Positions 629 through 31,574 of a DNA stretch of 64,000 nucleotides are shown here, piece by piece. Origin of the DNA: an uncultured Rickettsiales bacterium (lineage in GTDB: Bacteria > Pseudomonadota > Alphaproteobacteria > Rickettsiales > CAZNNM01); assembly GCA_964574415.1 (NCBI GenBank), contig CAZNNM010000002.1, positions 239,110-303,109 of the forward strand, written 5' to 3'. Numbering within the stretch: position 1 is the first letter of the stretch; every line of letters begins with the position of its first letter. Below the pieces are notes generated by a model, which was given only the letters and a program-made list of their open reading frames with translations, had not been told where the DNA came from and did no database searches. The position numbers and the translations under genes are program-made.

Positions 629-892
629 CTACCCCTCATAAATATCACGGCGATGGCCGATAGAGGCAATCGAGATCACCCTCGCATCCACATCTATATG
701 GTATAATATGCGATAATCTCCCACTCGCAAACTACGCAAATGGTGTAAACTATGCCGAAGCGGCTTACCAAAACGCACCGGATCAATGGTCAATTTGGTT
801 TCTATTGCTTTACGGATACGCTGTTTCACAGCATGATCAAGCCGTGGGATATCATCAGCAACAACGCTTTCTGCATACCGTATCTGCCACAT
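629..892 (-). CDS. Type II toxin, RelE/ParE family
   Basis: 87 aa. The profile (RIRKAIETKL...GKPLRHSLHHLRSLRVGDYRILYHID...VISIASIGHRRDIY) is typical of RelE/StbE-like toxins. It lies 3 nt downstream of a small RHH gene. Confidence 0.85.
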   Translation of the reverse strand: MWQIRYAESVVADDIPRLDHAVKQRIRKAIETKLTIDPVRFGKPLRHSLHHLRSLRVGDYRILYHIDVDARVISIASIGHRRDIYEG

Positions 893-895
893 AGA

Positions 896-1117
896 TTATT
901 TCCACGCATCCTCATGGTTTACCCACCTCTTAGCAGAAGCAAAGCGCTCATCAGCATGTTTAGAGAGCAGAATGTCTTCATGAAGCTCCAATGCTTCACG
1001 AATCAGCTCAGCAGCGGTTGCAGAGATCGAACGATGTTGTTGCTCCGCAAGATGCGCCAATAACCCGCTGGTTTCTTGATCAAGCATTACTTGAATTCTA
1101 GGATTTTCTGTTGCCAT
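896..1117 (-). CDS. Ribbon-helix-helix type antitoxin (partner of the RelE/ParE toxin)
   Basis: Start moved to ATG at 1117 (MATENPRIQVMLDQE...), with GGGAGA upstream. 73 aa, with a beta-strand plus two-helix N-terminal pattern. It sits immediately upstream of the toxin gene. Confidence 0.7.
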   Translation of the reverse strand: MATENPRIQVMLDQETSGLLAHLAEQQHRSISATAAELIREALELHEDILLSKHADERFASAKRWVNHEDAWK

Positions 1118-1270
1118 GATGGTATTCTCCCTATCTTTTGAAAGTGTATCACTTTTTACACACTTTTGCAAGAGAGAAGTATTTGCACCAACCCGCCTGC
1201 GCTTAGCTGCGCTCTCCATCTCATCAAGCCTAAAAAAGGCTTGCCGAGACATAGCTCGCAGAGCGTAGGC

Positions 1271-1347
1271 TGGTGGGGCGAGAGGGATTTGAACCCCCGA
1301 CCAAGGCGTTATGAGCGCCCTGCTACTAACCGCTGAGCTATCGCCCC
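1271..1347 (-). tRNA. tRNA with CAT anticodon (elongator Met or lysidine-modified Ile2; not initiator, since positions 1:72 form a G-C pair)
   Basis: The reverse complement GGGGCGATAGCTCAGCGGTTAGTAGCAGGGCGCTCATAACGCCTTGGTCGGGGGTTCAAATCCCTCTCGCCCCACCA folds as a cloverleaf. Anticodon loop is CTCATAA, T-loop is TTCAAAT, and CCA is encoded. Confidence 0.9.
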
Positions 1348-1400
1348 CTAAAGGAAGGTATTACCGTAGATATCCCCCTTTGGCAAGGGCTTTTCGTGGT

Positions 1401-1817
1401 TTACCAGCTTGCTAGCCCGTGTCCGGTTGGCAAAGTGTTTAAACTTGCTGCATTGGTTGGGTTTGCAATCGGTCTGTTGAAAATATCCCCAGAGGCATTC
1501 GGTAGCGTTGTCCGCATATCTGCCTCACGCAGCACCGAATAGGCATAATGCCGGCAATAGGCTGAGGCATCCTTCCACGCCAGATAATAATCAGGGATTT
1601 TGATCTTGGCTTCAGTGACCTTAAATTTATAGAAGGTCTGGTAATAGGCGTTGGTCATGTGCGAAAGCCCGGTTTCGCAGCCTTCTGTCCAGCCTTGCTT
1701 ATAATCGGGCGAGGCATCTTTCGGCATATCATCAAACAAGCGGTTGAGCGGCCGGAAGGTGGATGCACATCCCGTTAAGCCCATCACTAGAACTATTGCG
1801 AGTATCAGTGTTTTCAT
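1401..1817 (-). CDS. Lipoprotein, member 1 of a five-gene paralogous family (unknown function)
   Basis: 138 aa. Signal peptide with lipobox LTGC. The core DYKQGWTEGCETG...YYQTFYKFK...YYLAWKDASAYCRHY is shared with the four upstream genes. Confidence 0.75.
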   Translation of the reverse strand: MKTLILAIVLVMGLTGCASTFRPLNRLFDDMPKDASPDYKQGWTEGCETGLSHMTNAYYQTFYKFKVTEAKIKIPDYYLAWKDASAYCRHYAYSVLREADMRTTLPNASGDIFNRPIANPTNAASLNTLPTGHGLASW

Positions 1818-1820
1818 AGC

Positions 1821-2138
1821 CTACCAACTTTCCACCGCATCAAACTTCCACAACGTAAAGCGGAAGGTATATTGACGGCAATACGTATACGCATCTTTCC
1901 AGGCCTGATAATACATCTTATTCTGGATTTTATGCGTGTTTTGCGTGAATTTATAGAAGGTTTTATAATAGTTTGGCGCCATTGTACCCATACCGGTTTT
2001 GCAACCATCTCTCCAACCTTCCTGGAAATCTGGCGGCCCATCTGGCACATCGCCCATACCAAATGCCTTCGGCCCACCCAGTTTGGAGCTACAGGCGCTT
2101 AGCATCAGAATACAGGCTATAATGACTAGATACCGCAT
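1821..2138 (-). CDS. Lipoprotein, member 2 of the paralogous family
   Basis: Start set at ATG 2138 (MRYLVIIACILMLSAC), with GGAGA upstream. Core is GPPDFQEGWRDGCKTG...YYKTFYKF...YYQAWKDAYTYCRQY. Confidence 0.75.
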   Translation of the reverse strand: MRYLVIIACILMLSACSSKLGGPKAFGMGDVPDGPPDFQEGWRDGCKTGMGTMAPNYYKTFYKFTQNTHKIQNKMYYQAWKDAYTYCRQYTFRFTLWKFDAVESW

Positions 2139-2151
2139 ACTCCCATCTCCT

Positions 2152-2481
2152 CTAGAAGAACTCACGTTTGAGATATTGGAACATATAACGCTGGCAATAA
2201 TCAAACGCCGTTTTCCACCCAGTATAATAGGTTGGGTCTTGGGCTAAGGCACTGTCCTGCTTAAATTTATAGAACATTTTCTGATATTGGTTAGCCGTTG
2301 CCGAAATTCCCGTCTCACAGCCATCTTTCCAGCCTTGCTTAAAATTCGGCGGGCCAGGAGGGCCTTCAAACAGCATTTTCTGGTTTCCACCAAACGGCGA
2401 ACCTACGCGTGGTTTCCAGTCACACCCTGTAAGCAAGGTGAGAACGAATACAGCAGAGAGGATGATCGATAATAGTTTCAT
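2152..2481 (-). CDS. Lipoprotein, member 3 of the paralogous family
   Basis: 109 aa. Lipobox LTGC. Core is GPPNFKQGWKDGCETG...MFYKFKQD...YYTGWKTAFDYCQRY. Confidence 0.75.
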   Translation of the reverse strand: MKLLSIILSAVFVLTLLTGCDWKPRVGSPFGGNQKMLFEGPPGPPNFKQGWKDGCETGISATANQYQKMFYKFKQDSALAQDPTYYTGWKTAFDYCQRYMFQYLKREFF

Positions 2482-2945
2482 AACACACTATCACTTTTGA
2501 AGGGATCAACCCACATATCGGTTACACCATTAGCCCACGGGTTGCGGTATTCTGGCATGGTTTGATCGCCCCATTTACCAAAGGTATCAAACACACCGCC
2601 ACGGCCATCACCATCATAATCCATCAAACCATGCTCACCAATACTGAGCGCATAGACGGAGCAATAGCTATAGGCATCTTTCCATACTTGATAATACACA
2701 GGATTCTGCGCCAATATCGGGTCTTGCTTATACGAACCCCAGACTTTGTTAAACTGGGTAGCATAGGCTTTCCATCCACTCTGACAGCCATCTTTCCAGC
2801 CTTGTTCATATTCTGGCGGGCCTTTTGGCGGCACCATGTTTAAGTTCGCAGGCTTTGCCCAGTTAAATTGGGCATGACCACTGCTACACGCCGTAAGCAT
2901 CCCTATTAACATCATCATGGCAAGCGATCTGACGATCATTTTCAT
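2478..2945 (-). CDS. Lipoprotein, member 4 of the paralogous family (C-terminally extended)
   Basis: 155 aa. Lipobox LTAC. Core is GPPEYEQGWKDGCQSG...YYQVWKDAYSYCSVY. It overlaps the next gene by 4 bp. Confidence 0.75.
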   Translation of the reverse strand: MKMIVRSLAMMMLIGMLTACSSGHAQFNWAKPANLNMVPPKGPPEYEQGWKDGCQSGWKAYATQFNKVWGSYKQDPILAQNPVYYQVWKDAYSYCSVYALSIGEHGLMDYDGDGRGGVFDTFGKWGDQTMPEYRNPWANGVTDMWVDPFKSDSVL

Positions 2946-2951
2946 TACCTT

Positions 2952-3320
2952 TTAGTGCAAGTCCCAGTCTAAGTAGTATGCACAATATGAGCTTCCATCC
3001 GCAAAACCGCGTAGATACATCGGATCTTTGGATAATGTATATCCATCAATTTGCGGCTTCATCGTACGCAAAACCCCTGCACCCACAATCGACAGATGCG
3101 CCTCACAACCTGCACGCATCCCTTGGCTATAAGGATCATCACCTTGCGGTAGTTTTAAGAATGGCCGGCTTGGGGAGTATACACTGCCTTGCTTCGTATC
3201 CACAGGCTGTTTTAACCATGCCCAGCTACTGCTGTAACATCCTGACAATACAGCACAACACCCCACCATCAGCAGAATGCTTTTACCATGTGACCAGCAA
3301 GTGAATGTTTCTTTACGCAT
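2952..3320 (-). CDS. Lipoprotein, divergent member 5 of the paralogous family
   Basis: 122 aa. Lipobox LSGC. Retains a degenerate core (DPYSQGMRAGCEAH...MYLRGFADGSSYCAYY) with both Cys at equivalent positions. Confidence 0.6.
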   Translation of the reverse strand: MRKETFTCWSHGKSILLMVGCCAVLSGCYSSSWAWLKQPVDTKQGSVYSPSRPFLKLPQGDDPYSQGMRAGCEAHLSIVGAGVLRTMKPQIDGYTLSKDPMYLRGFADGSSYCAYYLDWDLH

Positions 3321-3338
3321 ATTCTTAAGTATATCATA

Positions 3339-3364
3339 TTTTTATAAAAAAATTTTTATAAAAA
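3339..3364. promoter_or_regulatory. Two copies of the perfect 12-bp palindrome TTTTTATAAAAA, 14 bp apart, upstream of the lipoprotein array
   Basis: tttttataaaaa occurs at 3339..3350 and again at 3353..3364, about 20-45 bp upstream of the first lipoprotein start codon (3320, minus strand). Confidence 0.3.
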
Positions 3365-3398
3365 TGCCCCCTCAGCGTAAAAGTTATAAGCTATTGTT

Positions 3399-3839
3399 TT
3401 ATCGTTTTTTCTGTTGTTGATCAAGCGCTTCGCGTTCGCGTTGCACTTGAGCTACGAAGGATTTTTGCGCGGTTTTTTGCGGCTCCACCTCTTCCTTGGC
3501 TACCTTCACCCCTGCTTTGAAAAACTGTTGGATACTGTGATAAATCGTTGCAATCACACTCGCACGGGCTTCTTCATCCAGAATCGCTTGCTCTCCGCCT
3601 AGCACCTGGCGTAAGCCTTTGTTTTTGCGTATCCTAAACATGCCCGCAAAGAAGCGCCCCAACACGCTTTCCCGCTGTTTTTCCTCAAGAACTTTCTCAT
3701 CACCAATTTCTTGGCGCAACCGCTTCAGCGTAGGGTCTTGGCCACGACGATCTGGCCCGGCATAGCGCTTCTCCTGCTGCTCTTCCTTGGCTTTATCCCG
3801 TTCTTCGGGCGGTTGAGTTTGATCGTCTTTTTCGTTCAT
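3399..3839 (-). CDS. Hypothetical highly charged protein
   Basis: 146-aa ORF rich in E/K/R/Q with one amphipathic central segment. No family recognised. It has no TM segment or MCE-like region, so it is not MlaD. Confidence 0.5.
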   Translation of the reverse strand: MNEKDDQTQPPEERDKAKEEQQEKRYAGPDRRGQDPTLKRLRQEIGDEKVLEEKQRESVLGRFFAGMFRIRKNKGLRQVLGGEQAILDEEARASVIATIYHSIQQFFKAGVKVAKEEVEPQKTAQKSFVAQVQREREALDQQQKKR

Positions 3840-3951
3840 AATGAACAGTAATATAACAGAAAGATGTAACAGTTTTATGAAGGGACTAGGGACTAGGAAT
3901 CTATCAACATAATGTCATAGCAAAGACTATGACACCTTACCCCAGCCTCCA

Positions 3952-4719
3952 TTAATGATCCTGAATCTGCATCTTAATCGGCCCTTCAGCCTTGCCATGA
4001 ATAAACTGCTGCACATACGGATTATCTGTCTCATCCAGATTTTCCACCGTATCGCACCAAATGAACTCACCTTGATAAAGCATCGCCACACGGTTCGCGA
4101 TTTTGCGGGCGCTGTGCATATCATGGGTGATGGTAAGTGTGGTTGCACCCAGTTCTTCGGAGCATTTTATGATCAGGTCGTTAATAATATCGGCCATAAT
4201 CGGATCCAGCCCTGTGGTTGGCTCATCAAAGAAGATAATCTCCGGCGAACGTGCAATCGCACGGGCAAGGGATACACGTTTTTGCATACCGCCCGATAAT
4301 TCGGATGGATACAAATCCGCCACTTCTTTGCCCAAGCCCACAGATGCTAATTTTTCGAGCGCCAGCTCACGGCCTTGTTTGCGGGTGAGTGCTTTGGTTT
4401 GCAGTAAGCTAAAGGAAATATTTTCCCATACCGGCAAACTATCAAACAACGCACCGCCTTGGAATAACATACCAAATTTTTCCATAATCCGGTCGCGCTG
4501 TGTACCACGAGCTTGTGCGGTTTCTTCGCCATCGATCAGAATGGAACCGCTAGTCGGATGCATCAATCCTAAAATGCTTTTGAGCAATACAGACTTGCCA
4601 CTACCCGAACCACCAATCACCACCAGCGACTCGCCCTTTTCAATGGTCAGATTAATGCCTTTCAGCACCTGTTTGGAACCGAAGGATTTGCATACATTAT
4701 CAAGTATAATTTTAGGCAT
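3952..4719 (-). CDS. mlaF: ABC transporter ATP-binding protein, MlaF-like (phospholipid/lipid asymmetry ABC system)
   Basis: Start set at ATG 4719 (MPKIILDNVCKSFG). Walker A GGSGSGKS, signature LSGGMQKRVSLARA and Walker B IIFFDEPTTGLD are present. It lies directly downstream of mlaE. Confidence 0.85.
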   Translation of the reverse strand: MPKIILDNVCKSFGSKQVLKGINLTIEKGESLVVIGGSGSGKSVLLKSILGLMHPTSGSILIDGEETAQARGTQRDRIMEKFGMLFQGGALFDSLPVWENISFSLLQTKALTRKQGRELALEKLASVGLGKEVADLYPSELSGGMQKRVSLARAIARSPEIIFFDEPTTGLDPIMADIINDLIIKCSEELGATTLTITHDMHSARKIANRVAMLYQGEFIWCDTVENLDETDNPYVQQFIHGKAEGPIKMQIQDH

Positions 4720-4724
4720 AATAA

Positions 4725-5522
4725 TTACCGTGCAAAGAAGAGTTCGGTGATGAGATAATTCGATAACAGAATGAGGATAGAAGAGGTTACCACCGCATTG
4801 GTCGTTGCAGCCCCCACTCCTTGCGCACCACCACGGGAATGATAGCCTTGATAGCATCCCATCAAGGTAATAATAAACCCAAACACCGCCGCTTTCACTA
4901 AACCAGAAAACACATCACGGAATTCCAGATACTGGAATGTGCTATGTAAATACGACCCAGGCACGAATCCAAGCTTATGGATACTCACCATATAGCCACC
5001 GAAAATACCGATAATATCAGCCACCAACACTAAACATGGCAGAGTGATAATTCCCGCAATCAACCGCGGAGCAACCAGATATTGGTAGGGATTGGTTGAA
5101 AGCGTGGAGAGCGCATCGATTTGCTCTGTCACCCGCATCGTCCCAATTTCCGCCGCAATCGCCGCACCCACACGACCTGCCACCATTAAGCCGGCTAATA
5201 CCGGCCCTAACTCACGGGTAATCGATAATACCACCACCGTTGCAATCGAGCTTTCCGCGTTAAAACGGGAAAATCCGCTATAGGATTGCAGTGCCAATAC
5301 CGCACCGGTGAAAATCGCTGTTAAGCCAATCACAGGCAGGGAGTAATATCCGACTTCCAACACCTGCCGTAAAATCTGGCGTGAATAATACGGTGGGCGG
5401 ATAATGGCATAGAGCGAATTCCCTGTAAAAATCGCTAATTTCCCGGTCATTTGTAAAAACGCCAATACCACTTGGCCAATAGTCGCTAGAAAATTCATCG
5501 ACGCTTTCTTTCCTCTATTCAC
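4725..5522 (-). CDS. mlaE: ABC transporter permease, MlaE/YrbE family
   Basis: 265 aa, multi-pass. Contains the family-typical stretch TRELGPVLAGLMVAGRVGAAIAAEIGTMRVTEQIDAL. Confidence 0.85.
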   Translation of the reverse strand: MNRGKKASMNFLATIGQVVLAFLQMTGKLAIFTGNSLYAIIRPPYYSRQILRQVLEVGYYSLPVIGLTAIFTGAVLALQSYSGFSRFNAESSIATVVVLSITRELGPVLAGLMVAGRVGAAIAAEIGTMRVTEQIDALSTLSTNPYQYLVAPRLIAGIITLPCLVLVADIIGIFGGYMVSIHKLGFVPGSYLHSTFQYLEFRDVFSGLVKAAVFGFIITLMGCYQGYHSRGGAQGVGAATTNAVVTSSILILLSNYLITELFFAR

Positions 5523-7214: not shown

Positions 7215-8483
7215 ATGCCCGTCGCAACCAAAAAAATCCGCAAAGCCCTTCGTCAAAAACAACGGCCACAACGTAGCTGGAAGGAGTGGCTGCCGCAGTT
7301 TAAGAAGAAAAACACCTATCAATGGCTGGAATCAGCTAATAGCAACTCCGCCAGTATGCAATCCCTGTTCCACACGCCAGGCAAGCCGGTTTGGATGCCA
7401 CGTGAATATGGAAAATTTGCCGATGAGGCCTATACGCGTAACGTCATCGCCTACCGCGCTATCACCATGATTGCTCAAAGTGCCGCCAGTGTAGACTGGG
7501 TGCTTTACCGCGTGGATGCTGAAGGCAACCGCCATGTTGTGCAAGAACATCCACTTTTGCGCTTGCTCCAACATCCGAATCCGTGCTGCGGTGGGGCAGA
7601 GTTTTTTGAGTCGGTCTATGCTTATAAACTCATCAGTGGCAATAGCTACATCCAAGCCATTGCGCCCGATGGCCTCGTCCCGCATGAATTACACACACTC
7701 CGGCCAGACCGCATCCAAATCATTGCCGGTGGGGCATGTATGCCGGAAGGGTATCGCTATACTGTCGGCAATTATAGCCGTGACTTTTTTGTAGACCGCA
7801 TCAGCGGTTATAGCGATATCCTCCACCTCAAATGCTTCCACCCGCTGAATGACTGGTATGGGCTTTCGCCGATTGAGGCGGCTGCCTATAGTATCGATCA
7901 ACACAACCACGCCAGCATGTGGAACCAATCCCTTTTGCAAAACGGTGCACGCCCAAGTGGCGCACTCATCGTCAAAACCGGAGACAACCAAACCGGCCTG
8001 CTGTCCGATGACCAGTTCCACCGCCTCAAACAACAACTGGATGAGCATTATAGCGGCAGTATCAATGCCGGACGACCATTATTACTGGAAGGCGGACTCG
8101 AATGGAAAGAGATGAGCCTCTCGCCAAAAGATATGGATTTCATGGATATGAAATACGGTGCTGCACGTGATATCGCTTTGGCCTTTGGTGTGCCACCACA
8201 ATTGCTAGGCATTCCAGGCGATAACACCTATAGCAACCTCGCCGAAGCACGCCTGGCATTATGGGAGCAAACCATTCTGCCACTCTTAGATAATACCGCC
8301 GATGCGCTCAATAACTGGCTCTCCCGCCGGTTTGACCATGACTTGCTGATCTCCTATAACGAAAACACCATCAGCGCCCTCGCCCCACGCCGCGAAACCA
8401 TCTGGAACCGCGTGGAAAACAGTAGCTTCATGACCGACGCTGAAAAACGCCGTGCGGTGGGGTTATCGATAGTGAGTGAGTAA
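7215..8483 (+). CDS. Phage portal protein, HK97 family (GTA-type), orphan
   Basis: 422 aa. Matches the HK97/RcGTA-g3-like portal pattern (NVIAYRAITMIAQSAASV..., GNSY, LSPIEAAAYSIDQHNHASMWNQSLLQNGARPSGAL, MDFMDMKYGAARDIALAFGVPPQLLG). No terminase, protease or capsid genes are adjacent. Confidence 0.85.
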   Translation: MPVATKKIRKALRQKQRPQRSWKEWLPQFKKKNTYQWLESANSNSASMQSLFHTPGKPVWMPREYGKFADEAYTRNVIAYRAITMIAQSAASVDWVLYRVDAEGNRHVVQEHPLLRLLQHPNPCCGGAEFFESVYAYKLISGNSYIQAIAPDGLVPHELHTLRPDRIQIIAGGACMPEGYRYTVGNYSRDFFVDRISGYSDILHLKCFHPLNDWYGLSPIEAAAYSIDQHNHASMWNQSLLQNGARPSGALIVKTGDNQTGLLSDDQFHRLKQQLDEHYSGSINAGRPLLLEGGLEWKEMSLSPKDMDFMDMKYGAARDIALAFGVPPQLLGIPGDNTYSNLAEARLALWEQTILPLLDNTADALNNWLSRRFDHDLLISYNENTISALAPRRETIWNRVENSSFMTDAEKRRAVGLSIVSE

Positions 8484-11336: not shown

Positions 11337-11704
11337 TGTCATTCACCGGCTTGATCCAAGAATCCATCACAAATAAATGCTTTATATTTTTAGATGGATT
11401 GCCGCGTCGCTAACGCTCCTAGCAATGACGAGGCTTACTTTGTCATCCTTGGGCTTGACCCAAGGATCCATCCTAAACAGAGAGCAACAATACGACTTTG
11501 AATAATGCTATGTATTTTAGATGGATTCTTGGATCAAGTCCAAGAATGACAGAGAAACCATACCACCGTCATCGCGAGCTTTAGCGAAGCGACTTTGTCT
11601 CGCCACAGCCCTTTAGGGCGTAGGAGGATTCATATTTCCTGCATAAAGGACGGAGAAGTTATAAACATGGATTGCCACGTCCACTATGTGGCCTCGCAAT
11701 GACG
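11337..11704. repeat. Cluster of palindromic repeats (partial family C, partial family B, full family C 11441..11551, family B 11567..11704)
   Basis: The sequence at 11441..11551 closely matches 8567..8677. cgtcatcgcgagc...cctcgcaatgacg at 11567..11704. Confidence 0.9.
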
Positions 11705-11839
11705 AGCAACCACGCAACAACGGCGATCAAGCCAACACATAACACAGAAACCACCCCTTCCCTGCTTTTTCTGCTATACTACCGAAGACTTTCCGCTTTT
11801 CATACGTATAAACCTATATACATATTACCAGGTTGCCCT

Positions 11840-12988
11840 ATGAACAAACGAACCCTTATTATATCTATCAGTATCTTAGCCATTCTCACCACCCTTACCG
11901 CCTGGTATATCACCAGCCGTTCCGGCACGGAAGCTTCTGCCACCAACCATGTTACCCTCACCCGTGGCACGATTGAGGAAACGGTAACGGCACAGGGGAA
12001 ATTGGAGCCGAAAGAATATGTGGATGTCGGCGCACAAGTATCAGGTCAGCTCAAGAAACTGCATGTGGATTTGGGCTATATTGTCAAAAAAGGTGATATT
12101 ATCGCCGAAATCGACCCCAAGGTCTATGAAGCCCGCGTAAAAGCCTCACAAGCGAAACTTGATACGCTCAAAGCCCAACTGGCTGAACAAGAAGCTGAAA
12201 CCAGCTTCGCTCAGCAGCAATTAGAACGTAATCAACGCCTAATTGCCTCAAAAGCCATTAGCCAGGAGGCTTTAGAAGACACCCAAACCGCCAAAAAAGT
12301 AGCCGAAGCCCGTGTAGCTTCTCTCAAGGCACAAATCGATGAAGCCCAATCCACCCTGGAAGGTGATCAGGCGAATTTGCAGTATACGAAAATTTATGCC
12401 CCGATGGATGGCACGGTGGTGGTGCTTACAACCCGCGAAGGCCAAACCGTCAATGCCAACCAAACCGCCCCGGTCATCGTGCAACTAGCCAATCTTGATA
12501 TTATGACCGTCAAAGCCCAAGTTGCTGAAGCCGATGTGATGCGCCTCAAGCCTGGGATGAATGTTTCCTTCGCCACACTCGGCAGCCTTGACCGCCGTTG
12601 GACAGGCACAATCCGCCAGATTCTCCCCTCACCTGAAATCATCAACGATGTCGTCCTCTATAACGCCCTCGTCGATGTCGATAATGCCGACCGCCAATTA
12701 ATGAGCGGGATGAGTACACAAATGTTCTTTGAACTGGGCAAGGCAGAGGATGTGTTACTCCTACCCGTCACCGCACTCGGCAAAGCCCTGCCAGAAGAAA
12801 ACAGTGAAAAAGGCACTGCCTACCAAGTGCGCACACCTGCTGGTATGAAAGTGATCCATACCGGTTTGATGAGCCGTAATTTTGTGGAGGTGACTGAGGG
12901 CTTAAAAGAGAGCGACACTGTAATTGCACCCTTAGGCGCCAATAAAGCAGCCGGCCAAACCCCACGCGGATTCGGGCCACGCATATGA
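11840..12988 (+). CDS. macA: Efflux periplasmic adaptor (membrane fusion protein), MacA-like
   Basis: Start set at ATG 11840 (MNKRTLIISISILAI...). HlyD/RND-MFP pattern with a coiled-coil segment and YTKIYAPMDGTVV. It overlaps macB by 4 bp. Confidence 0.85.
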   Translation: MNKRTLIISISILAILTTLTAWYITSRSGTEASATNHVTLTRGTIEETVTAQGKLEPKEYVDVGAQVSGQLKKLHVDLGYIVKKGDIIAEIDPKVYEARVKASQAKLDTLKAQLAEQEAETSFAQQQLERNQRLIASKAISQEALEDTQTAKKVAEARVASLKAQIDEAQSTLEGDQANLQYTKIYAPMDGTVVVLTTREGQTVNANQTAPVIVQLANLDIMTVKAQVAEADVMRLKPGMNVSFATLGSLDRRWTGTIRQILPSPEIINDVVLYNALVDVDNADRQLMSGMSTQMFFELGKAEDVLLLPVTALGKALPEENSEKGTAYQVRTPAGMKVIHTGLMSRNFVEVTEGLKESDTVIAPLGANKAAGQTPRGFGPRI

Positions 12989-14910
12989 GCGCATTGCTGG
13001 AAATTAGCCATATTAAGCGTTTTTATAGCAGTGGTGACACCACCGTCCGCGCGCTCGATGACGTATCGCTTTCCATTTACCCTGGCGAATTTGTGGCGAT
13101 TATGGGGCAATCGGGTTCGGGTAAATCGACTTTAATGAACATCATCGGCTGCTTGGATCAGCCAACCTCAGGCAGCTATAAAGTGCGCGGTATTGAAGCC
13201 AGCACGCTCGATAGTGATGCACTGGCTGCACTGCGGCGTGATACGTTTGGCTTTATCTTCCAACGCTATAACCTGCTTGCCACCGCTACTGCCGAAGAGA
13301 ACGTAGAAATTCCTGCTATCTATGCTGGAAAGCCCAAAGAATCCCGCGTTATACAAGCGCGCAAACTGCTCACCCGCTTAGGACTGGGTGACCGTAGTGA
13401 CCACACACCATCCCAACTTTCCGGCGGCCAGCAACAACGTGTCGCTATTGCACGTGCCTTGATGAATAACCCGCCGATTATTCTCGCCGATGAACCCACC
13501 GGTGCGCTGGATAGCCGTAGCGGTGAAGAAGTCATGGCATTGCTCAAAGAACTCCACAGCGAAGGCCGCACAATTATCCTGATTACCCATGATGAAAACG
13601 TCGCCGCTAACGCAGAACGCATCATCCGTATTCAAGATGGGAAGATCGTTGAAGAAAGTGGAAAAATTATCACCGACCCACAGATCACCGCCACCAAACA
13701 CCACCTCGCCCATGCCGATAGTATCGGCGATATTAGCGAAGCGATTAAAATGGCAATGCGCTCCCTACACACAAACCTCTTCCGCACCGCCCTTACCTTA
13801 CTGGGCATTATTATTGGTGTCGCTTCGGTGATTATTATGCTCGCCGTGGGTGATGGCAGTAAACAAAAAGTGCTGGATCAAATTTCAGCTATGGGAACCA
13901 ATCTCCTCGGTGTACGCCCTGGCGCGCCAGGGATACGCGGTGGTGGCGATGTGATCACCCTCATTCCTGATGATGCAGAAGCCATTACCCATATCAATAA
14001 TGTCGAAATCGCCGTGCCAGAACGTGGCGGCAGATTCACGGTACGCTATGGCAATATCGACTATGCCACCGCCATACAAGGCGTTGGCGAAGGCTTCTCT
14101 GCTGCGCGTGATTGGCAGGTTGTTGCAGGTAGCTTCTTCACCGAGCGCGATGTGAAAAGCTATGCACCAGTCGCACTACTGGGTAAAACCGTACTCAACA
14201 ATTTATTCCCCAATGGCGAGAATCCCATTGGCGAATATATCCTCATCCGCAACGTACCGTTTGAAGTGATTGGCATTATGGATGAAAAAGGCGCCGGCTG
14301 GGGTGGTGATCAGGATGATGCGGTGGTTATTCCTTATACTACAGGCATTATCCGCCTATTCGGCCTGCCATATCTCAACTCCATTACGGTGAAAGTGACC
14401 GACCTAAAACATATCGATAAAACCCAAGAAGACATCACCGAACTGCTCAAAGCCCGCCATCGCACAGAAGATTTCAGCATTCGTAGTTCCGCCTCGATTA
14501 TCGACATGGCCTCCACCGCTCAAAACACGCTCACCGTATTGCTTGGTGCTGTAGCCGCAATTTCACTTTTCGTAGGCGGTATTGGAGTGATGAATATTAT
14601 GCTGGTAAGCGTCACCGAACGCACACGCGAAATCGGCATACGCATGGCCACCGGCGCACGGATGCGGGATATTATGGTGCAGTTTAATACGGAAGCAGCG
14701 GTGGTATGTACTGTCGGCGGTGTATTAGGACTCATACTCGGATTCACAGGCGGATTTATCCTGCAAGGATTTGGCGTCTCTGTGCTGTTTTCACCCTTCC
14801 CCGCCATGCTTGCATTCTCATGTGCTGTGCTGACAGGTGTTGTATTCGGCTATCTACCTGCACGCAAAGCCGCCAAGCTTGATCCTGTTGTTGCACTAGC
14901 GTCGGAGTAG
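12985..14910 (+). CDS. macB: MacB-type ABC transporter (fused ATPase and FtsX-like permease)
   Basis: 641 aa. Walker A GQSGSGKST, signature LSGGQQQRVAIARA and Walker B ILADEPTGALD, followed by a large periplasmic loop and a C-terminal 4-TM FtsX domain (TREIGIRMATGAR). Confidence 0.9.
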   Translation: MSALLEISHIKRFYSSGDTTVRALDDVSLSIYPGEFVAIMGQSGSGKSTLMNIIGCLDQPTSGSYKVRGIEASTLDSDALAALRRDTFGFIFQRYNLLATATAEENVEIPAIYAGKPKESRVIQARKLLTRLGLGDRSDHTPSQLSGGQQQRVAIARALMNNPPIILADEPTGALDSRSGEEVMALLKELHSEGRTIILITHDENVAANAERIIRIQDGKIVEESGKIITDPQITATKHHLAHADSIGDISEAIKMAMRSLHTNLFRTALTLLGIIIGVASVIIMLAVGDGSKQKVLDQISAMGTNLLGVRPGAPGIRGGGDVITLIPDDAEAITHINNVEIAVPERGGRFTVRYGNIDYATAIQGVGEGFSAARDWQVVAGSFFTERDVKSYAPVALLGKTVLNNLFPNGENPIGEYILIRNVPFEVIGIMDEKGAGWGGDQDDAVVIPYTTGIIRLFGLPYLNSITVKVTDLKHIDKTQEDITELLKARHRTEDFSIRSSASIIDMASTAQNTLTVLLGAVAAISLFVGGIGVMNIMLVSVTERTREIGIRMATGARMRDIMVQFNTEAAVVCTVGGVLGLILGFTGGFILQGFGVSVLFSPFPAMLAFSCAVLTGVVFGYLPARKAAKLDPVVALASE

Positions 14911-14912
14911 TT

Positions 14913-16301
14913 ATGATACGCCCCTTTCTCCTTACTACATGCCTGATAAGCCTTGCCAGTTGCACTCCCTCTATGGAAAAATTGACAGCAATGGCCATCC
15001 CAAGCCAATGGAAACAACAACCTACTGCAAGCACTGGGCCAGCCTTGCCCGATACCACTGCGCCCTGGTGGGAAAATTTTCAGGATGCGGAGCTTAATAG
15101 CCTAGTCACCGATGCGCTTGCACATAATAACGATGTGCAAGCTGCCATTACACGCGTGGAACAAGCCCGTGCCAGCCGTGTGATTGGTGGTGCAGGCCTA
15201 TGGCCGAATCTGAATCTCACGGGCGGCGCATCAAAGAATAATAGCGATATCAATGGTACCAGCGAACGTTATAATGCACAGCTCGGCGTTGCGTATGAGT
15301 TGGATTTATTCGGCAAAAACCTATCCCTCAAACACGCAGCCGATGCTAATTTCCGTGCGAGCCAATACGATAAAAAGGCGATTGATCTCATTACCTCTTC
15401 TGATGTAACTGCCAGCTATTTCAACACGCTTTCTCTTGATGACCAAATCAAGGATGCCGAACAAAATGTGAGCAATGCGCAAGAAATTTTGGATATTATC
15501 GAAGCACGGTTTAAAGAGGGCAGTGTTTCGGCGCTGGAAGTCTCCCAACAACGCACCGAGCTTGCCACTACTCAAGCCCAAAGAGCCGCGCTTATTGATC
15601 AACGCAATGCATCACTCACACAGCTTGCCGTCCTCCTCGGCAAAGCCCCGCAAGAATTTAACCTGCGCACAGAAACACTGGCTGAGCTTACCGCGCCACA
15701 GATTGCACCAACACTGCCAGCAACCTTACTCACCGCACGCCCCGATATACAACGCGCAGAAGCCACCCTTGCTGCCGCCCGCGCCAATGTCAGCGCCACA
15801 CGGGCCGCACTTTTCCCTAGCCTTACTTTAGGCGCCAGCGCCTCTGCACTGGCTAATCCTGCCGAAGCCGTAACCTCTATTAGCGCATCACTGGTTGCCC
15901 CTTTATTCCAAGGTGGCCGGTTAAAAGCCGATCTTGACCGCGTCACCGCGCGGCAGATGGAATTGGTGCAAGACTACCAGAAAACCGTGCTAACTGCCTT
16001 TAAAGAAGTAGAAGATGCGCTTTCTGCCAACAAGGCAGCTGATACGCGTTACACTCTCTTCACCACCGCAGCAACCGAAGCAGATAATGCCTATAATCTC
16101 GCCCGCGAACGGTTTGATGCCGGTGCGATTGATTTCCAAACCCTGCTTGACACACAACGCAGCCAACTCCAAGCCCATACAAACCTCACCCAAGCCAAAC
16201 AAGAATCCCTTGTAGCCGCTCTGGCACTGTATCGGGCGTTAGGTGGGAATACGAAAATGACAACGCTAGCGTTATCGGATAACGGATTGCAGGAGGAGTG
16301 A
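14913..16301 (+). CDS. Outer-membrane efflux lipoprotein, NodT/TolC family
   Basis: 462 aa. Lipobox LASC. Two OEP repeats (TARPDIQRAEATLAAARANVSATRAALFPSLTL). It is the third gene of the macAB operon. Confidence 0.85.
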   Translation: MIRPFLLTTCLISLASCTPSMEKLTAMAIPSQWKQQPTASTGPALPDTTAPWWENFQDAELNSLVTDALAHNNDVQAAITRVEQARASRVIGGAGLWPNLNLTGGASKNNSDINGTSERYNAQLGVAYELDLFGKNLSLKHAADANFRASQYDKKAIDLITSSDVTASYFNTLSLDDQIKDAEQNVSNAQEILDIIEARFKEGSVSALEVSQQRTELATTQAQRAALIDQRNASLTQLAVLLGKAPQEFNLRTETLAELTAPQIAPTLPATLLTARPDIQRAEATLAAARANVSATRAALFPSLTLGASASALANPAEAVTSISASLVAPLFQGGRLKADLDRVTARQMELVQDYQKTVLTAFKEVEDALSANKAADTRYTLFTTAATEADNAYNLARERFDAGAIDFQTLLDTQRSQLQAHTNLTQAKQESLVAALALYRALGGNTKMTTLALSDNGLQEE

Positions 16302-28710: not shown

Positions 28711-28728
28711 CCATAATCATTCTAGGAA

Positions 28729-28805
<77 letters not shown>

Positions 28806-28937
28806 TCACGAAACGCGTTGTTTACTGCGAAGGGTTGTATCTATAAAACGGTAAATACGTCTTGTCAAAGGATTTATTTAGGCTTGGCGGAACTATTCAT
28901 TTGGTTTATGCTCCTAGCATTGTTTTTTAAGGATTTT

Positions 28938-31574
28938 ATGACTAAGGTTCAACATCAGGCCTCCAACCCTCAAAGCTCCGTCTGGCTTGCGGCCTCGGCT
29001 GGAACTGGCAAAACCAAGGTTTTGACGGATCGTGTGCTGCGCTTGCTGCTATCAGGCGTAGATGCCTCACATATACTCTGCCTCACCTATACCAGCGCCG
29101 CCGCCGCCGAGATGGAAACCCGTATCCACAGCCGCTTGAGCGATTGGGTGATTGCTGATGATGCAACATTACAGACACAATTAGAAGCCCTCACGGGAGA
29201 ACCCGCTAGCAATGCGATGTTGACCCAAGCCCGCCTCTTATTTGCCACCGTGCTTGATACGCCACAAGGCCTCAAAATCCAGACGATTCACGCATTCTGC
29301 CAGAATATCCTCTCGCGCTTCCCCCTGGAAGCTGGGATTGCACCGCATACGACTATCATGGATAACCAAACCCGCCATGAATTGCTAAGTGAAGCTAAAA
29401 TGCGGCTTCTGATGGCACGCACACAGGATAAAGCCCTGGCTGAAGCCATCAAAGCACTGGCCTGCCGTCTGCATGAAAGCAATTTCCTGGAACTACTGGA
29501 AACTATCATTAACCAAAGCATCCGCTTAGGCCGTTTGCTGGAAAATACACCACTTGCCGACGTGATTGCCCGTGTGTATAGCGCCCTTGGTGTACAGCAA
29601 CACGAAACCGAGGCACAGATTCTTACCGATTATGCGCTTGATGCCGACCAAACCGGCCTTTATGCTTGCGTAAGCACTCTGTTTGAAGGCGGCAAGACCG
29701 ATCAGAAATACGGCCAAGCCATCAAAACCTGGCTGGATAGCGATGCCGAAGAACGCGTAATAGGGTGGGAGGCGTATCAGAGTGTTTTTGTCACCCAAGA
29801 AGGCAAAGCGCGTGATAAATTATGCAGCAAAGCCATTATGGACGGCGCACCACATATTGCCGATACTCTGGCCGAAGAACAACAGCGCATCCTCGCTGCA
29901 TTGGAACATATACGCTCCGTCCGCACCGCAAGCTTTACCCATTATGTCCTCCGCCTTAGCCATGCCTTGCTGGAACATTACCACCAGCTGAAAACACGTT
30001 ATGGCTATATGGATTTTAACGATGTGATCTATAGCACCCGCAAACTGCTCACCGAATCGGTGGCGATGGATTGGGTGCTGTATAAGCTGGATAATGGGAT
30101 TGATCATATATTAGTCGATGAAGCCCAAGATACCAGCCCTGACCAATGGCATATTATCACCCAATTGCTCAGCGAATTCTTTGCAGGAGAATCCATTGGC
30201 GGCAGAATCCGCACACTTTTCGTCGTAGGCGATGAAAAACAATCGATCTACCGCTTCCAAGGCGCTGATCCTAAAATGTTCCAGACCATGCAAGCCACCT
30301 ATGAAACGCAAGCGCTGCAAAGCAATGCGTTATGGCAATCGCTTTCGCTGGATATGTCCTTCCGGTCTACCGAGGCGGTGCTAACATTAGTGGATGCCAT
30401 CTGCGCACATCCGGTGCTAAAACCCTATCTCAGCCCTACCACTGCCGTCATACATCACCATGTATTCCGCACCAACCAGCCAGGCATTATCGAACTCTGG
30501 CCCGTGATAGAGGCAGAAACGCAAGAAACCGTAGACCCATGGCCTTTACCAATCACCCGCCGCCACAGCCAAGACCCCGCCACACGCGTGGCAGAGCAGA
30601 TCGCAGAGACGATTCATCACTGGCGCAACAGCAAACGCCCCCTTGCTTCACGCGGCCGGCCTGTGGAGCCTGGGGATATCATGATTCTGGTGCGACGGCG
30701 TAATCACTTTGTCGATGCAATGGTACGTGCGCTTAAACAGCGCAACATCCCTGTAGCAGGTACGGATAGGCTAGTCCTCACCGATCATATCGCCATTATG
30801 GATCTCATCGCACTCGGCGAATTCCTGCTTTTCCCGCAGGATGACCTCACCCTCGCCACCCTTCTCAAAACTCCACTTATTGGCCTAAGCGAAGAAGCCC
30901 TGTTCACACTGGCACATGACCGTGGCAAAGAATCGCTTTGGAGCCGGCTGATAGAGCGCCAGGCGGAGTATCCTCAAGCCTATAGCTATCTTCACGATCT
31001 GCTACAGCGTGTAGATGCCATCACCCCGTTTGAACTGTATAGCTATGTGCTGGATATACGTGCAGGCCGTACTGATTTTATTGCCCGCATGGGTGATGAG
31101 GTGAATGATCCGTTTGACGAATTCCTAGACCTCGCCCTCACCTATGAACAAAGCCATACCGCTTCACTGCAAGGCTTTTTACATTGGCTTAAAACCTCTC
31201 CGGTGGAAATCAAACGCGATATGGAACAAAGCAGCAATGAAGTGCGCATTATGACCGTGCATGGCGCTAAAGGTCTGCAAGCTCCTATCGTCTTCCTACC
31301 TGATACCACCCAAATGCCTTATAACAAACCAGGCGAATTTATCTGGCAGGATGACTTGTTCTTCTGGCCTGGCGGACGTGCCAATGAAAATGCACTCTGC
31401 ACCACCCTACGCACCGCGCAATCACAAGAACAAACCGAAGAATACTACCGCCTACTCTACGTAGCCCTCACACGCGCAGAGGATGAGCTGTATATTGCTG
31501 GCTGGCAAGGCACTAAAAAACGGCCGGATGGGTGTTGGTATACGATTTTGGAGAATGTGATAAAAAGGTCTTAG
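28938..31574 (+). CDS. addA: AddA-type (UvrD/Rep superfamily 1) helicase, apparently lacking the C-terminal nuclease domain
   Basis: Start set at ATG 28938 (MTKVQHQASNPQSSVWLAASAGTGKTKVLTDRV), because the longer ORF runs through tRNA-Ile. Helicase motifs up to LLYVALTRAEDELYIAG are present. The ORF ends 30 aa later at 878 aa, next to a repeat. Confidence 0.75.
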   Translation: MTKVQHQASNPQSSVWLAASAGTGKTKVLTDRVLRLLLSGVDASHILCLTYTSAAAAEMETRIHSRLSDWVIADDATLQTQLEALTGEPASNAMLTQARLLFATVLDTPQGLKIQTIHAFCQNILSRFPLEAGIAPHTTIMDNQTRHELLSEAKMRLLMARTQDKALAEAIKALACRLHESNFLELLETIINQSIRLGRLLENTPLADVIARVYSALGVQQHETEAQILTDYALDADQTGLYACVSTLFEGGKTDQKYGQAIKTWLDSDAEERVIGWEAYQSVFVTQEGKARDKLCSKAIMDGAPHIADTLAEEQQRILAALEHIRSVRTASFTHYVLRLSHALLEHYHQLKTRYGYMDFNDVIYSTRKLLTESVAMDWVLYKLDNGIDHILVDEAQDTSPDQWHIITQLLSEFFAGESIGGRIRTLFVVGDEKQSIYRFQGADPKMFQTMQATYETQALQSNALWQSLSLDMSFRSTEAVLTLVDAICAHPVLKPYLSPTTAVIHHHVFRTNQPGIIELWPVIEAETQETVDPWPLPITRRHSQDPATRVAEQIAETIHHWRNSKRPLASRGRPVEPGDIMILVRRRNHFVDAMVRALKQRNIPVAGTDRLVLTDHIAIMDLIALGEFLLFPQDDLTLATLLKTPLIGLSEEALFTLAHDRGKESLWSRLIERQAEYPQAYSYLHDLLQRVDAITPFELYSYVLDIRAGRTDFIARMGDEVNDPFDEFLDLALTYEQSHTASLQGFLHWLKTSPVEIKRDMEQSSNEVRIMTVHGAKGLQAPIVFLPDTTQMPYNKPGEFIWQDDLFFWPGGRANENALCTTLRTAQSQEQTEEYYRLLYVALTRAEDELYIAGWQGTKKRPDGCWYTILENVIKRS

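What the first reader, a model, noticed from the sequence alone, without database searches (positions are those of the whole stretch)
1401..3320. Tandem array of five paralogous small lipoproteins with a conserved two-cysteine GPPxFxQGWxDGCxTG ... YYxxWKDAxxYC core
Five co-directional genes of 105-155 aa are packed with gaps of -4 to 13 nt. Each has a signal peptide and lipobox (LTGC, LSAC, LTGC, LTAC, LSGC). Each shares the same roughly 70-residue core with two invariant Cys, which suggests a disulfide, and aromatic-rich FYKF and YYxxWKDA blocks. The fifth copy is strongly diverged. I do not recognise this domain. A local five-fold expansion of a surface or periplasmic lipoprotein suggests diversifying selection, for example host interaction, immunity proteins or antigenic variation. 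The array sits between tRNA(CAT) and a twin-palindrome promoter region.
Basis: seen in the sequence. Interest (0 to 1): 0.7.

Follow-up and report, generated by a model that had tools for sequence, protein, structure and literature searches.

The report
Conserved five-gene paralogous lipoprotein operon
Five neighbouring genes for small, related membrane-anchored proteins are real. They are not a recent local expansion but an ancient, fixed five-part gene set from an undescribed protein family, found only in uncultured Rickettsiales-like bacteria and probably forming one cell-envelope complex.

Summary
Five co-directional minus-strand genes (3320-1401; 122, 155, 109, 105 and 138 aa) have gaps of 6, -4, 13 and 3 nt. 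Each has a lipoprotein signal peptide with a lipobox and the same ~70-residue two-cysteine core.

The domain is unannotated: no match in Pfam, NCBIfam, PADLOC or PDB sequences, and no Foldseek match for a confident all-helical model (pLDDT 90.6). But the array is not a local, diversifying expansion.
- In 47 loci from uncultured "Rickettsiales/Alphaproteobacteria" MAGs, nearly every complete array has five copies.
- The copies fall into five position-specific orthologous subfamilies in the same order.
- One clade shows a cyclic permutation (5-1-2-3-4). One relative fuses subunits 2 and 3 into a single lipoprotein.
- Flanking genes are not conserved.
- Against a close relative, dN/dS is 0.02-0.09 at dS of about 1.
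- The two cysteines are kept together in 380 domains. They are lost together once and never singly.

Best reading (inferred, about 0.5): five non-redundant, co-translated subunits of a periplasmic hetero-oligomeric lipoprotein complex. Each subunit is a disulfide-stapled helical hairpin that arose by an internal duplication. The biochemical role is unknown.

The parts
2952..3320 (-). p1, subfamily 1: 122-aa lipoprotein (lipobox LSGC). It is the first gene of the operon and the most divergent paralogue. Its core reads GDDPYSQGMRAGC ... YLRGFADGSSYC and it ends in LDWDLH.
   Evidence: ORF. Orthologues sit at array position 1 in 36 of 40 other arrays. The subfamily HMM assigns sub1 with margins of 12-43 bits. 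dN/dS is 0.09 against L051.
2478..2945 (-). p2, subfamily 2: 155-aa lipoprotein (LTAC). It has the core domain plus a ~50-residue Gly/Asp/Trp-rich tail.
   Evidence: The best hit lies at position 2 in 28 of 40 arrays. dN/dS is 0.024.
2152..2481 (-). p3, subfamily 3: 109-aa lipoprotein (LTGC). Its start overlaps the p2 stop (ATGA). It is the most conserved subunit and ends in ...QRYMFQYLKREFF.
   Evidence: 25 homologues at 44-68% identity. AF2 model has pLDDT 90.6 and is all-helical. dN/dS is 0.044.
1821..2138 (-). p4, subfamily 4: 105-aa lipoprotein (LSAC), starting at the ATG of MRYLVII. The longer TTG-initiated ORF listed mechanically (127 aa) overlaps p3 and is not supported.
   Evidence: External gene calls give 105 aa. 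dN/dS is 0.037.
1401..1817 (-). p5, subfamily 5: 138-aa lipoprotein (LTGC). It has a low-complexity tail ending in Trp (...GHGLASW).
   Evidence: Sub5 is the long-tailed subunit in other arrays (median 176 aa) and ends in Trp in 20 of 40 arrays. dN/dS is 0.042.
3321..3398 (-). AT-rich upstream region with a promoter-like site (TTTATA, 18 nt spacer, TATGAT; 3362-3333) and two copies of the palindrome TTTTTATAAAAA (3338-3365).
   Evidence: The -10 box and proximal unit are conserved in L051; the second palindrome unit is absent there.
1376..1389 (.). Short GC-rich hairpin between the p5 stop and tRNA-Met. It may mark the end of the operon, but its role is uncertain.
   Evidence: One search reports it as terminator-like on the + strand only.
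1271..1347 (-). tRNA-Met (CAT) immediately downstream. It is a boundary marker, not part of the module.
   Evidence: It sits at the same position in the close relative L051 but not next to arrays in other lineages.

Best explanation
The region is a single operon. It encodes five different, non-interchangeable members of one undescribed lipoprotein family.

Proposed structure of each product:
- It is exported, lipidated at the lipobox cysteine and anchored to a membrane facing the periplasm.
- Its ~70-residue core is a helical hairpin made of two copies of a ~30-residue unit (P-x-x-[FY]-x-x-G-W-x-D-G...C). A disulfide between the two invariant cysteines holds it together.

Proposed function: the five subunits are made together in near-equal amounts (tight or overlapping junctions) and assemble into one hetero-oligomeric envelope complex. 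The long, low-complexity, Trp-terminated tail of subunit 5 reaches out to another envelope component.

Shown:
- Real coding genes under strong purifying selection.
- Lipoprotein signals.
- A conserved cysteine pair.
- Five position-specific orthologous subfamilies in a fixed order.
- A module that moves as a unit between genomic contexts.
- A natural fusion of two subunits.

Inferred: the disulfide, the periplasmic location, physical assembly of the five subunits, and any role of the tail. The biochemical task of the complex is not known.
For: (1) In 41 of 48 loci the array has exactly five domain-bearing ORFs on one strand. Two of the remaining loci are cut by contig ends.

(2) Positional orthology. 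In the best-hit position matrix the diagonal holds 816-1172 of about 1,600 comparisons per row, against 22-404 per off-diagonal cell. Subfamily HMMs recover the order 1-2-3-4-5 in 8 loci outside the HMM seed set (L018, L019, L022, L023, L026, L029, L030 complete; L021 for its first three genes).

(3) L024 is a clean cyclic permutation, 5-1-2-3-4, so all five types are retained. L032 matches the same pattern at four of its five positions; the fifth is ambiguous (5 by +3 bits).

(4) In L053 subunits 2 and 3 are fused into one 226-aa lipoprotein. It has one signal peptide and is flanked by 1, 4 and 5. P0034 and P0039 are further two-domain fusions.

(5) Over 144 junctions the median gap is 3 nt. 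There are 44 overlaps and 75 gaps of 0-20 nt.

(6) Flanking genes are not conserved: at most 10 of 48 loci share any neighbour, and those are housekeeping genes such as nuoL, a glycosyltransferase and thiL. The five genes are therefore the unit of conservation.

(7) dN/dS is 0.02-0.09 at dS 0.87-1.43 against L051.

(8) Each subfamily has its own conserved C-terminus, which fits non-redundant roles.

(9) MAGs with more than one array carry whole extra arrays, not extra single genes (JAJNBL: L008, L024, L033).

(10) The AF2 monomer has pLDDT 90.6, with the two Cys on the two long helices (H45-62 and H83-108). The cysteines are lost only together. The internal repeat is supported by hhalign (probability 94%, E = 1.3e-7).

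(11) A five-domain concatenate gave pTM 0.47 although only about 180 residues were confident. This is weakly compatible with a packed assembly.
Against: - No direct test of interaction was possible.
- The concatenate model had alignment depth only on domain 3 and a mean pLDDT of 59, so its pTM is not decisive.
- Fixed order and co-expression would also fit five separately acting but jointly needed proteins.
- Two-gene arrays (types 4-5 only; L020, L033) show that a subset can persist alone.
- No neighbour, domain or fold match points to a task.
- Membrane (inner or outer) and topology are not established. The +2 residues vary.
Confidence: 0.5

Rival explanations
1. The five are co-regulated but independently acting periplasmic binding or inhibitor proteins. 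Each paralogue would neutralise or bind a different target, for example host or competitor cell-wall hydrolases, or small ligands. There would be no stable complex between them.
For: Small disulfide-bonded periplasmic lipoproteins often act as inhibitors (general knowledge). Subfamily-specific conserved C-termini could equally reflect different targets. Two-gene arrays exist (L020, L033).
Against: - A fixed set of exactly five types in the same order across deep divergence, and a 2+3 fusion, are not expected for independent binders.
- No known inhibitor or immunity fold was matched.
- No target or effector gene is linked.
Confidence: 0.25
2. One reading: a locally expanded surface lipoprotein family under diversifying selection, serving antigenic variation, host interaction or toxin immunity.
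For: The array is a tandem set of paralogous lipoproteins. The host lineage is labelled Rickettsiales, whose members are often host-associated.
Against: - dN/dS is 0.02-0.09.
- Paralogues are only 25-43% identical, and each has older orthologues elsewhere.
- Copy number is constant.
- There are no long repeats for recombination and no slippage tracts in the genes.
- There is no PADLOC hit and no linked toxin.
Confidence: 0.07
3. The five are accessory periplasmic components of the neighbouring MlaE/MlaF lipid ABC transporter. They would stand in for the missing MlaD/MlaC, by analogy with the tandem MceA-F paralogues of mycobacterial Mce transporters.
For: In the window the order on one strand is mlaE (5522-4725), mlaF (4857-3952), a 146-aa gene, then the five genes. 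No MCE-domain gene is adjacent.
Against: - The Mla adjacency is seen only in the window and its near-identical relatives (L001, probably L051). It is absent from the other arrays.
- A promoter-like AT-rich gap separates the array from the upstream gene.
- No MCE domain is detected.
Confidence: 0.05

Closest known systems
Mycobacterial Mce operons (mceA-F, six tandem paralogues forming a heterohexamer; PMC9882608)
   Same: Both have several paralogous envelope proteins encoded head-to-tail in a fixed, conserved order, one of each type per operon. Whole operons are duplicated rather than single genes. In the window the array follows MlaE/MlaF-type transporter genes.
   Different: - There is no MCE domain.
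- The subunits here are ~100-aa helical lipoproteins, not ~400-aa beta-barrel plus helix proteins.
- There are five types, not six.
- Linkage to MlaEF is not conserved.
- Assembly here is inferred, not shown.
Staphylococcus aureus tandem lipoprotein cluster lpl (DUF576), and tandem lipoprotein paralogue families of Borrelia and Mycoplasma (from general knowledge)
   Same: Both are tandem arrays of paralogous lipoprotein genes.
   Different: Those arrays vary in copy number between strains and are linked to immune stimulation or variation. This one has a fixed five-type composition, strong purifying selection and an unrelated domain.
Small helical periplasmic T6SS immunity proteins (Rap/Tai families) (from general knowledge)
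   Same: Both are small, periplasmic, disulfide-containing, helical proteins, sometimes encoded as adjacent paralogues.
   Different: There is no Foldseek match to any PDB chain at E < 1. No effector genes are adjacent. There is no PADLOC hit (PADLOC covers anti-phage defence only). Composition is fixed across genomes.
VirB7/TrwH-type and YifL (LptM)-type mini-lipoproteins
   Same: These gave the only PDB sequence hits, and they are weak: TrwH E = 0.2-0.56 and YifL E = 1.8. Both are short lipoproteins that work inside larger envelope machines.
   Different: The matches cover only the signal peptide and lipobox region (query positions 2-40). The core domain is unmatched.

Membership tests
Bacterial lipoproteins (Lgt/LspA substrates) | N-terminal signal peptide with a basic n-region, a hydrophobic h-region and a lipobox [LVI][ASTVI][GAS]C | tested here: met
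   All five window proteins have it: LSGC, LTAC, LTGC, LSAC, LTGC. A rule-based scan finds one in most orthologues in 47 loci. No dedicated predictor (SignalP/LipoP) was available, and lipidation was not tested.
Any curated protein family (Pfam-A, NCBIfam, PADLOC) | A match above the family's gathering threshold | tested here: not met
   The five window proteins have no domain hit in Pfam or NCBIfam, only sub-threshold lipobox or signal hits. None of 150 family members hits a Pfam domain recurrently. PADLOC finds nothing. This includes DUF2799, which I recalled as having similar G-x-DG / YC motifs.
Known three-dimensional folds (PDB, BFVD) | A significant sequence or structure match to a solved or predicted structure | tested here: not met
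   Foldseek on the pLDDT-90.6 model gives a best E of 2.7 in PDB and 1.6 in BFVD. Profile searches against PDB sequences give only signal-peptide-level hits. AlphaFold DB was not available.
MCE/Mla substrate-binding proteins | An MCE domain (PF02470), and conserved linkage to YrbE/MlaE permease genes | tested here: not met
   No MCE hit. MlaEF adjacency is seen only in the window's close relatives.
Variable or contingency surface-lipoprotein families | Variable copy number, elevated dN/dS or hypervariable segments, and repeats or slippage tracts that drive switching | tested here: not met
   Five copies in 41 of 48 loci. dN/dS 0.02-0.09. No tandem repeats in the genes and only short 60-80% identical motif segments between paralogues.
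Hetero-oligomeric complexes encoded by paralogue operons (a functional class, not a sequence family) | One of each subunit type per operon in conserved order, co-translation, and demonstrated physical association | tested here: inconclusive
   Composition, order, tight junctions and a subunit fusion are met.

The most novel reading that the evidence does not exclude
The five genes encode a previously undescribed five-subunit lipoprotein machine of the cell envelope. It would be built from a new disulfide-stapled helical-hairpin fold and would be a lineage-specific hallmark of uncultured, probably host-associated, Rickettsiales-like alphaproteobacteria. Some genomes would carry two or three paralogous versions of the whole machine.
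Probability: 0.4. Interest if true: 0.75.

Novelty: new variant of a known kind. Interest (0 to 1): 0.55.

Why it matters
The family has about 540 clusters at 50% identity among 1.84 billion representative proteins. It has no name, no Pfam model and no structural relative, yet it is under strong constraint and is kept as a five-piece set across a whole uncultured lineage. Sets of paralogous subunits in fixed order usually mark multi-subunit machines such as Mce.

If the five do assemble, this would be a new envelope complex in a group that contains many endosymbionts and is hard to study experimentally. It would also add a new small fold for structural biology. In practice, the five-gene cassette is a clean marker for this lineage, and the family deserves a database model with five subfamilies.

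If the proteins act separately, this is one more domain of unknown function. It would still be an unusually clear example of ancient subfunctionalised paralogues.

Tried and rejected
- Library searches for the domain all failed: Pfam and NCBIfam on the five proteins, Pfam on 150 members, PADLOC, PDB sequence profiles (two alignments), and Foldseek against PDB and BFVD.
- Guilt by association failed. Clustering of 523 flanking ORFs from 48 loci found no neighbour shared by more than 10 loci, and the shared ones are housekeeping genes.
- The Mla link was rejected because it is confined to the window's close relatives.
- The tRNA and ParE toxin-antitoxin neighbourhood was considered as a sign of an island. 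It was rejected because GC content is unremarkable and the array is chromosomal and old.
At 25-43% protein identity synonymous sites are saturated, so an orthologue comparison was used instead.
The permitted version had alignment depth only on one domain.
- A word-index search with p1 found only itself and one close relative.
- Identification of the organism failed. The best DnaK match is 85%, to unnamed metagenome proteins, and exact look-ups returned only unnamed Logan contigs.
- Literature searches found nothing on this family.
Full report
**What is there**

Window 1401-3320 holds five co-directional minus-strand ORFs (sequence). In transcription order:

| Gene | Coordinates | Length | Lipobox |
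|---|---|---|---|
| p1 | 3320-2952 | 122 aa | LSGC |
| p2 | 2945-2478 | 155 aa | LTAC |
| p3 | 2481-2152 | 109 aa | LTGC |
| p4 | 2138-1821 | 105 aa | LSAC |
| p5 | 1817-1401 | 138 aa | LTGC |

Junction gaps are 6, -4, 13 and 3 nt. Each protein begins with a short basic stretch, a hydrophobic stretch and a lipobox cysteine.

All five share a core with two further invariant cysteines and the motifs P-x-G-P-P-x-[FY]-x-x-G-W-x-D-G-C-x-T-G and Y-Y-x-x-W-K-D-A-x-x-Y-C. p1 is much more divergent than the rest: 31-32 bits against 59-77 bits among p2-p5.

tRNA-Met (CAT) follows at 1271-1347. Upstream there is an AT-rich gap with a promoter-like site and two copies of TTTTTATAAAAA.

**The genes are real and constrained**

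A close relative, L051 (a Logan contig), carries the same five genes plus the tRNA. Nei-Gojobori estimates against it give dS 0.87-1.43. dN/dS is 0.09, 0.024, 0.044, 0.037 and 0.042 for p1-p5. This is strong purifying selection on all five, including the divergent p1.

At the DNA level the paralogues share only short motif segments at 60-80% identity, and there are no tandem repeats inside the genes. There is therefore no sign of recent duplication, gene conversion or phase variation.

**The family is undescribed**

- Pfam-A and NCBIfam give no domain hit for any of the five.
- None of 150 diverse members has a recurrent Pfam hit.
- PADLOC is negative.
- Profile searches of PDB sequences give only signal-peptide-level matches to mini-lipoproteins: TrwH at E = 0.2-0.56 and YifL at E = 1.8.
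- An exhaustive HMMER scan of 1.84 billion representatives finds 539 clusters at E <= 1e-3. The few source names are all 'hypothetical protein' from 'Rickettsiales bacterium' or 'Proteobacteria bacterium' MAGs.

The window itself is an alphaproteobacterial chromosome (alpha-type AddA, DnaK, CarB, DnaG, RecQ). It has no close named relative: the best DnaK match is 85%.

**Structure**

AlphaFold2 on p3 with 29 sequences gives mean pLDDT 90.6 and pTM 0.73. After the signal helix there is an extended Pro-rich stretch, then two long helices, 45-62 and 83-108. These carry Cys55 and Cys96, with short helical turns between them.

Foldseek finds nothing at E < 1 in PDB or BFVD.

Across 404 aligned domains the two cysteines are both present in 380, lost singly in none and lost together in one (L005 position 2); the other 23 have a gap at one of the two columns. 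This is the pattern expected of a disulfide.

The two halves of the domain are homologous to each other (hhalign probability 94%, E = 1.3e-7; aligned motif [PN]-x-x-[YF]-x-x-G-W-x-D-G). The hairpin therefore arose by duplication of a ~30-residue unit. The disulfide itself and the periplasmic location are inferences.

**The decisive comparative result**

A pattern scan of one genome per species (185,579 species) returned 47 loci, all from uncultured MAGs labelled Rickettsiales, Rickettsiaceae or Alphaproteobacteria; a few carry evidently automatic labels.

Scanning all six frames with a family HMM shows exactly five domain-bearing ORFs in a row on one strand in 41 of 48 loci, counting the window. 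Two of the exceptions are truncated by contig ends (L021, L047), and two are two-gene arrays (L020, L033). The remaining three are L031 (four in a row plus one distant copy), L034 (four) and L039 (three).

The copies are positionally orthologous:
- For every protein, the best hit in each other locus lies predominantly at the same position. Diagonal counts are 816-1172 of about 1,600 per row; off-diagonal cells hold 22-404 each.
- Subfamily HMMs built from one clade recover the order 1-2-3-4-5 in 8 loci outside the HMM seed set.
- In the most distant, AT-rich clade, positions 1 and 5 are still clearly assigned. Positions 2-4, which are closest to one another, blur.
- L024 shows the order 5-1-2-3-4, a cyclic permutation that keeps all five types; L032 fits the same order at four of five positions.
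- In L053 types 2 and 3 are fused into one 226-aa lipoprotein with a single signal peptide, flanked by types 1, 4 and 5. Two further two-domain fusions exist.
- MAGs with more than one array have whole additional arrays: JAJNBL has L008, L024 and L033; JAJONM has L007 and L019; CAZOKN has L005 and L023.

Across 144 junctions the median gap is 3 nt, and 44 junctions overlap.

Each subfamily has its own conserved C-terminus, for example LDWETH in type 1, HGLGNWR in type 2, YLRRNII in type 3 and a long Gly/Asn-rich tail ending in Trp in type 5 (20 of 40 arrays).

**Context**

Clustering 523 flanking ORFs from 48 loci finds no neighbour shared by more than 10 loci. The shared ones are housekeeping genes (nuoL, a glycosyltransferase, thiL, a TauE-like permease) confined to sub-clades.

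In the window the upstream genes are alr, mlaE, mlaF and a 146-aa charged protein. That arrangement is seen only in the window's near relatives. The five genes are thus the conserved unit, and the surrounding genes give no functional clue.

**Interpretation**

The duplications are ancient, the set is fixed and selection is purifying.

The pattern is this:
- One of each of five specialised paralogues.
- A fixed order that tolerates only a cyclic shift.
- Tight translational coupling.
- Duplication and relocation as a block.
- A fusion of two adjacent members.

This is the pattern seen for operons encoding hetero-oligomers of paralogous subunits. The clearest bacterial parallel is the mceA-F genes, whose six products form a heterohexamer (PMC9882608).

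I therefore favour a membrane-anchored periplasmic hetero-oligomer of five helical-hairpin lipoproteins, at a confidence of about 0.5.

The only structural test I could run was an AF2 model of the five mature window proteins concatenated, with alignment depth on domain 3 only. It gave pLDDT 59 and pTM 0.47. The pTM is higher than expected for five independent 65-residue domains in a 528-residue chain, but the model is too weak to count as evidence.

The main rival (about 0.25) is five separately acting binders or inhibitors that are simply needed together. Antigenic variation or immunity (0.07) and an Mla accessory role (0.05) are poorly supported.

**Novelty and verdict**

The domain family and its five-subfamily cassette appear to be undescribed. 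Tandem paralogous envelope proteins forming a set are a known kind of thing, but this family, its fold and its strict five-part architecture are new.

Function remains unknown and the host lineage is uncultured. The interest is therefore real but specialised: 0.55.

Noticed in passing
window 629-1252 (minus strand); L051 2898-3638: A ParE-family toxin (629-892) and a ribbon-helix-helix antitoxin (896-1252) sit just beyond tRNA-Met. In the close relative L051 the same position, after the same tRNA, holds a DUF347 gene instead. The tRNA flank is therefore a variable insertion spot.
   Followed up: partly
window 3399-5522 (minus strand): mlaE and mlaF are followed not by an MCE-domain mlaD but by a 146-aa highly charged protein with no family match. 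That protein is 77% identical in L051, with dN/dS 0.115. Whether this genome has mlaD elsewhere is unknown.
   Followed up: partly
L024 6782-8620 and L032 6656-8517: L024 carries the five subunit types in the order 5-1-2-3-4, a cyclic permutation of the usual order. L032 shows the same pattern at four of five positions (one is ambiguous). L024 comes from a MAG (JAJNBL) that also has a standard array (L008) and a two-gene 4-5 array (L033).
   Followed up: partly
L053 3790-5591 (also L054; L052 176-856): There are natural fusions of two family domains in one lipoprotein. P0033 is types 2+3, in an array of 1, (2+3), 4, 5. P0034 and P0039 are other two-domain proteins.
   Followed up: partly
L003-L014, array position 4: Many type-4 subunits carry an extra C-x-x-C pair in a conserved tail (LCVLCPNE). 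The window's p4 lacks it. This may be a second disulfide or a metal site.
   Followed up: no
L005 3816-4175 (array position 2): This is the only domain of 404 aligned in which the core cysteines are missing, and both are replaced at once (C to L and C to G).
   Followed up: partly
window 3338-3365 compared with L051 ~590-615: The twin palindrome TTTTTATAAAAA x2 upstream of p1 is reduced to a single unit in the nearest relative, while the adjacent TATGATAT box is identical. The palindrome pair is probably not a conserved operator.
   Followed up: yes
window 7215-8483 (+): An HK97-family phage portal gene sits in an otherwise housekeeping stretch. It could belong to a gene transfer agent or a prophage remnant.
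   Followed up: no
window 11672-16301 (+): A complete MacA-MacB-TolC/NodT-type tripartite efflux operon: a periplasmic adaptor, a fused ABC ATPase-permease and an outer-membrane factor.
   Followed up: no
window 28728-31574 (+) and tRNA 28732-28805 (-): The mechanically listed AddA ORF starts on top of a tRNA gene on the other strand. Its match to the alpha-type AddA model begins at residue 75 and covers only model positions 3-890 of 1138. The true start is further downstream, and the gene may be shortened at its 3' end.
   Followed up: no
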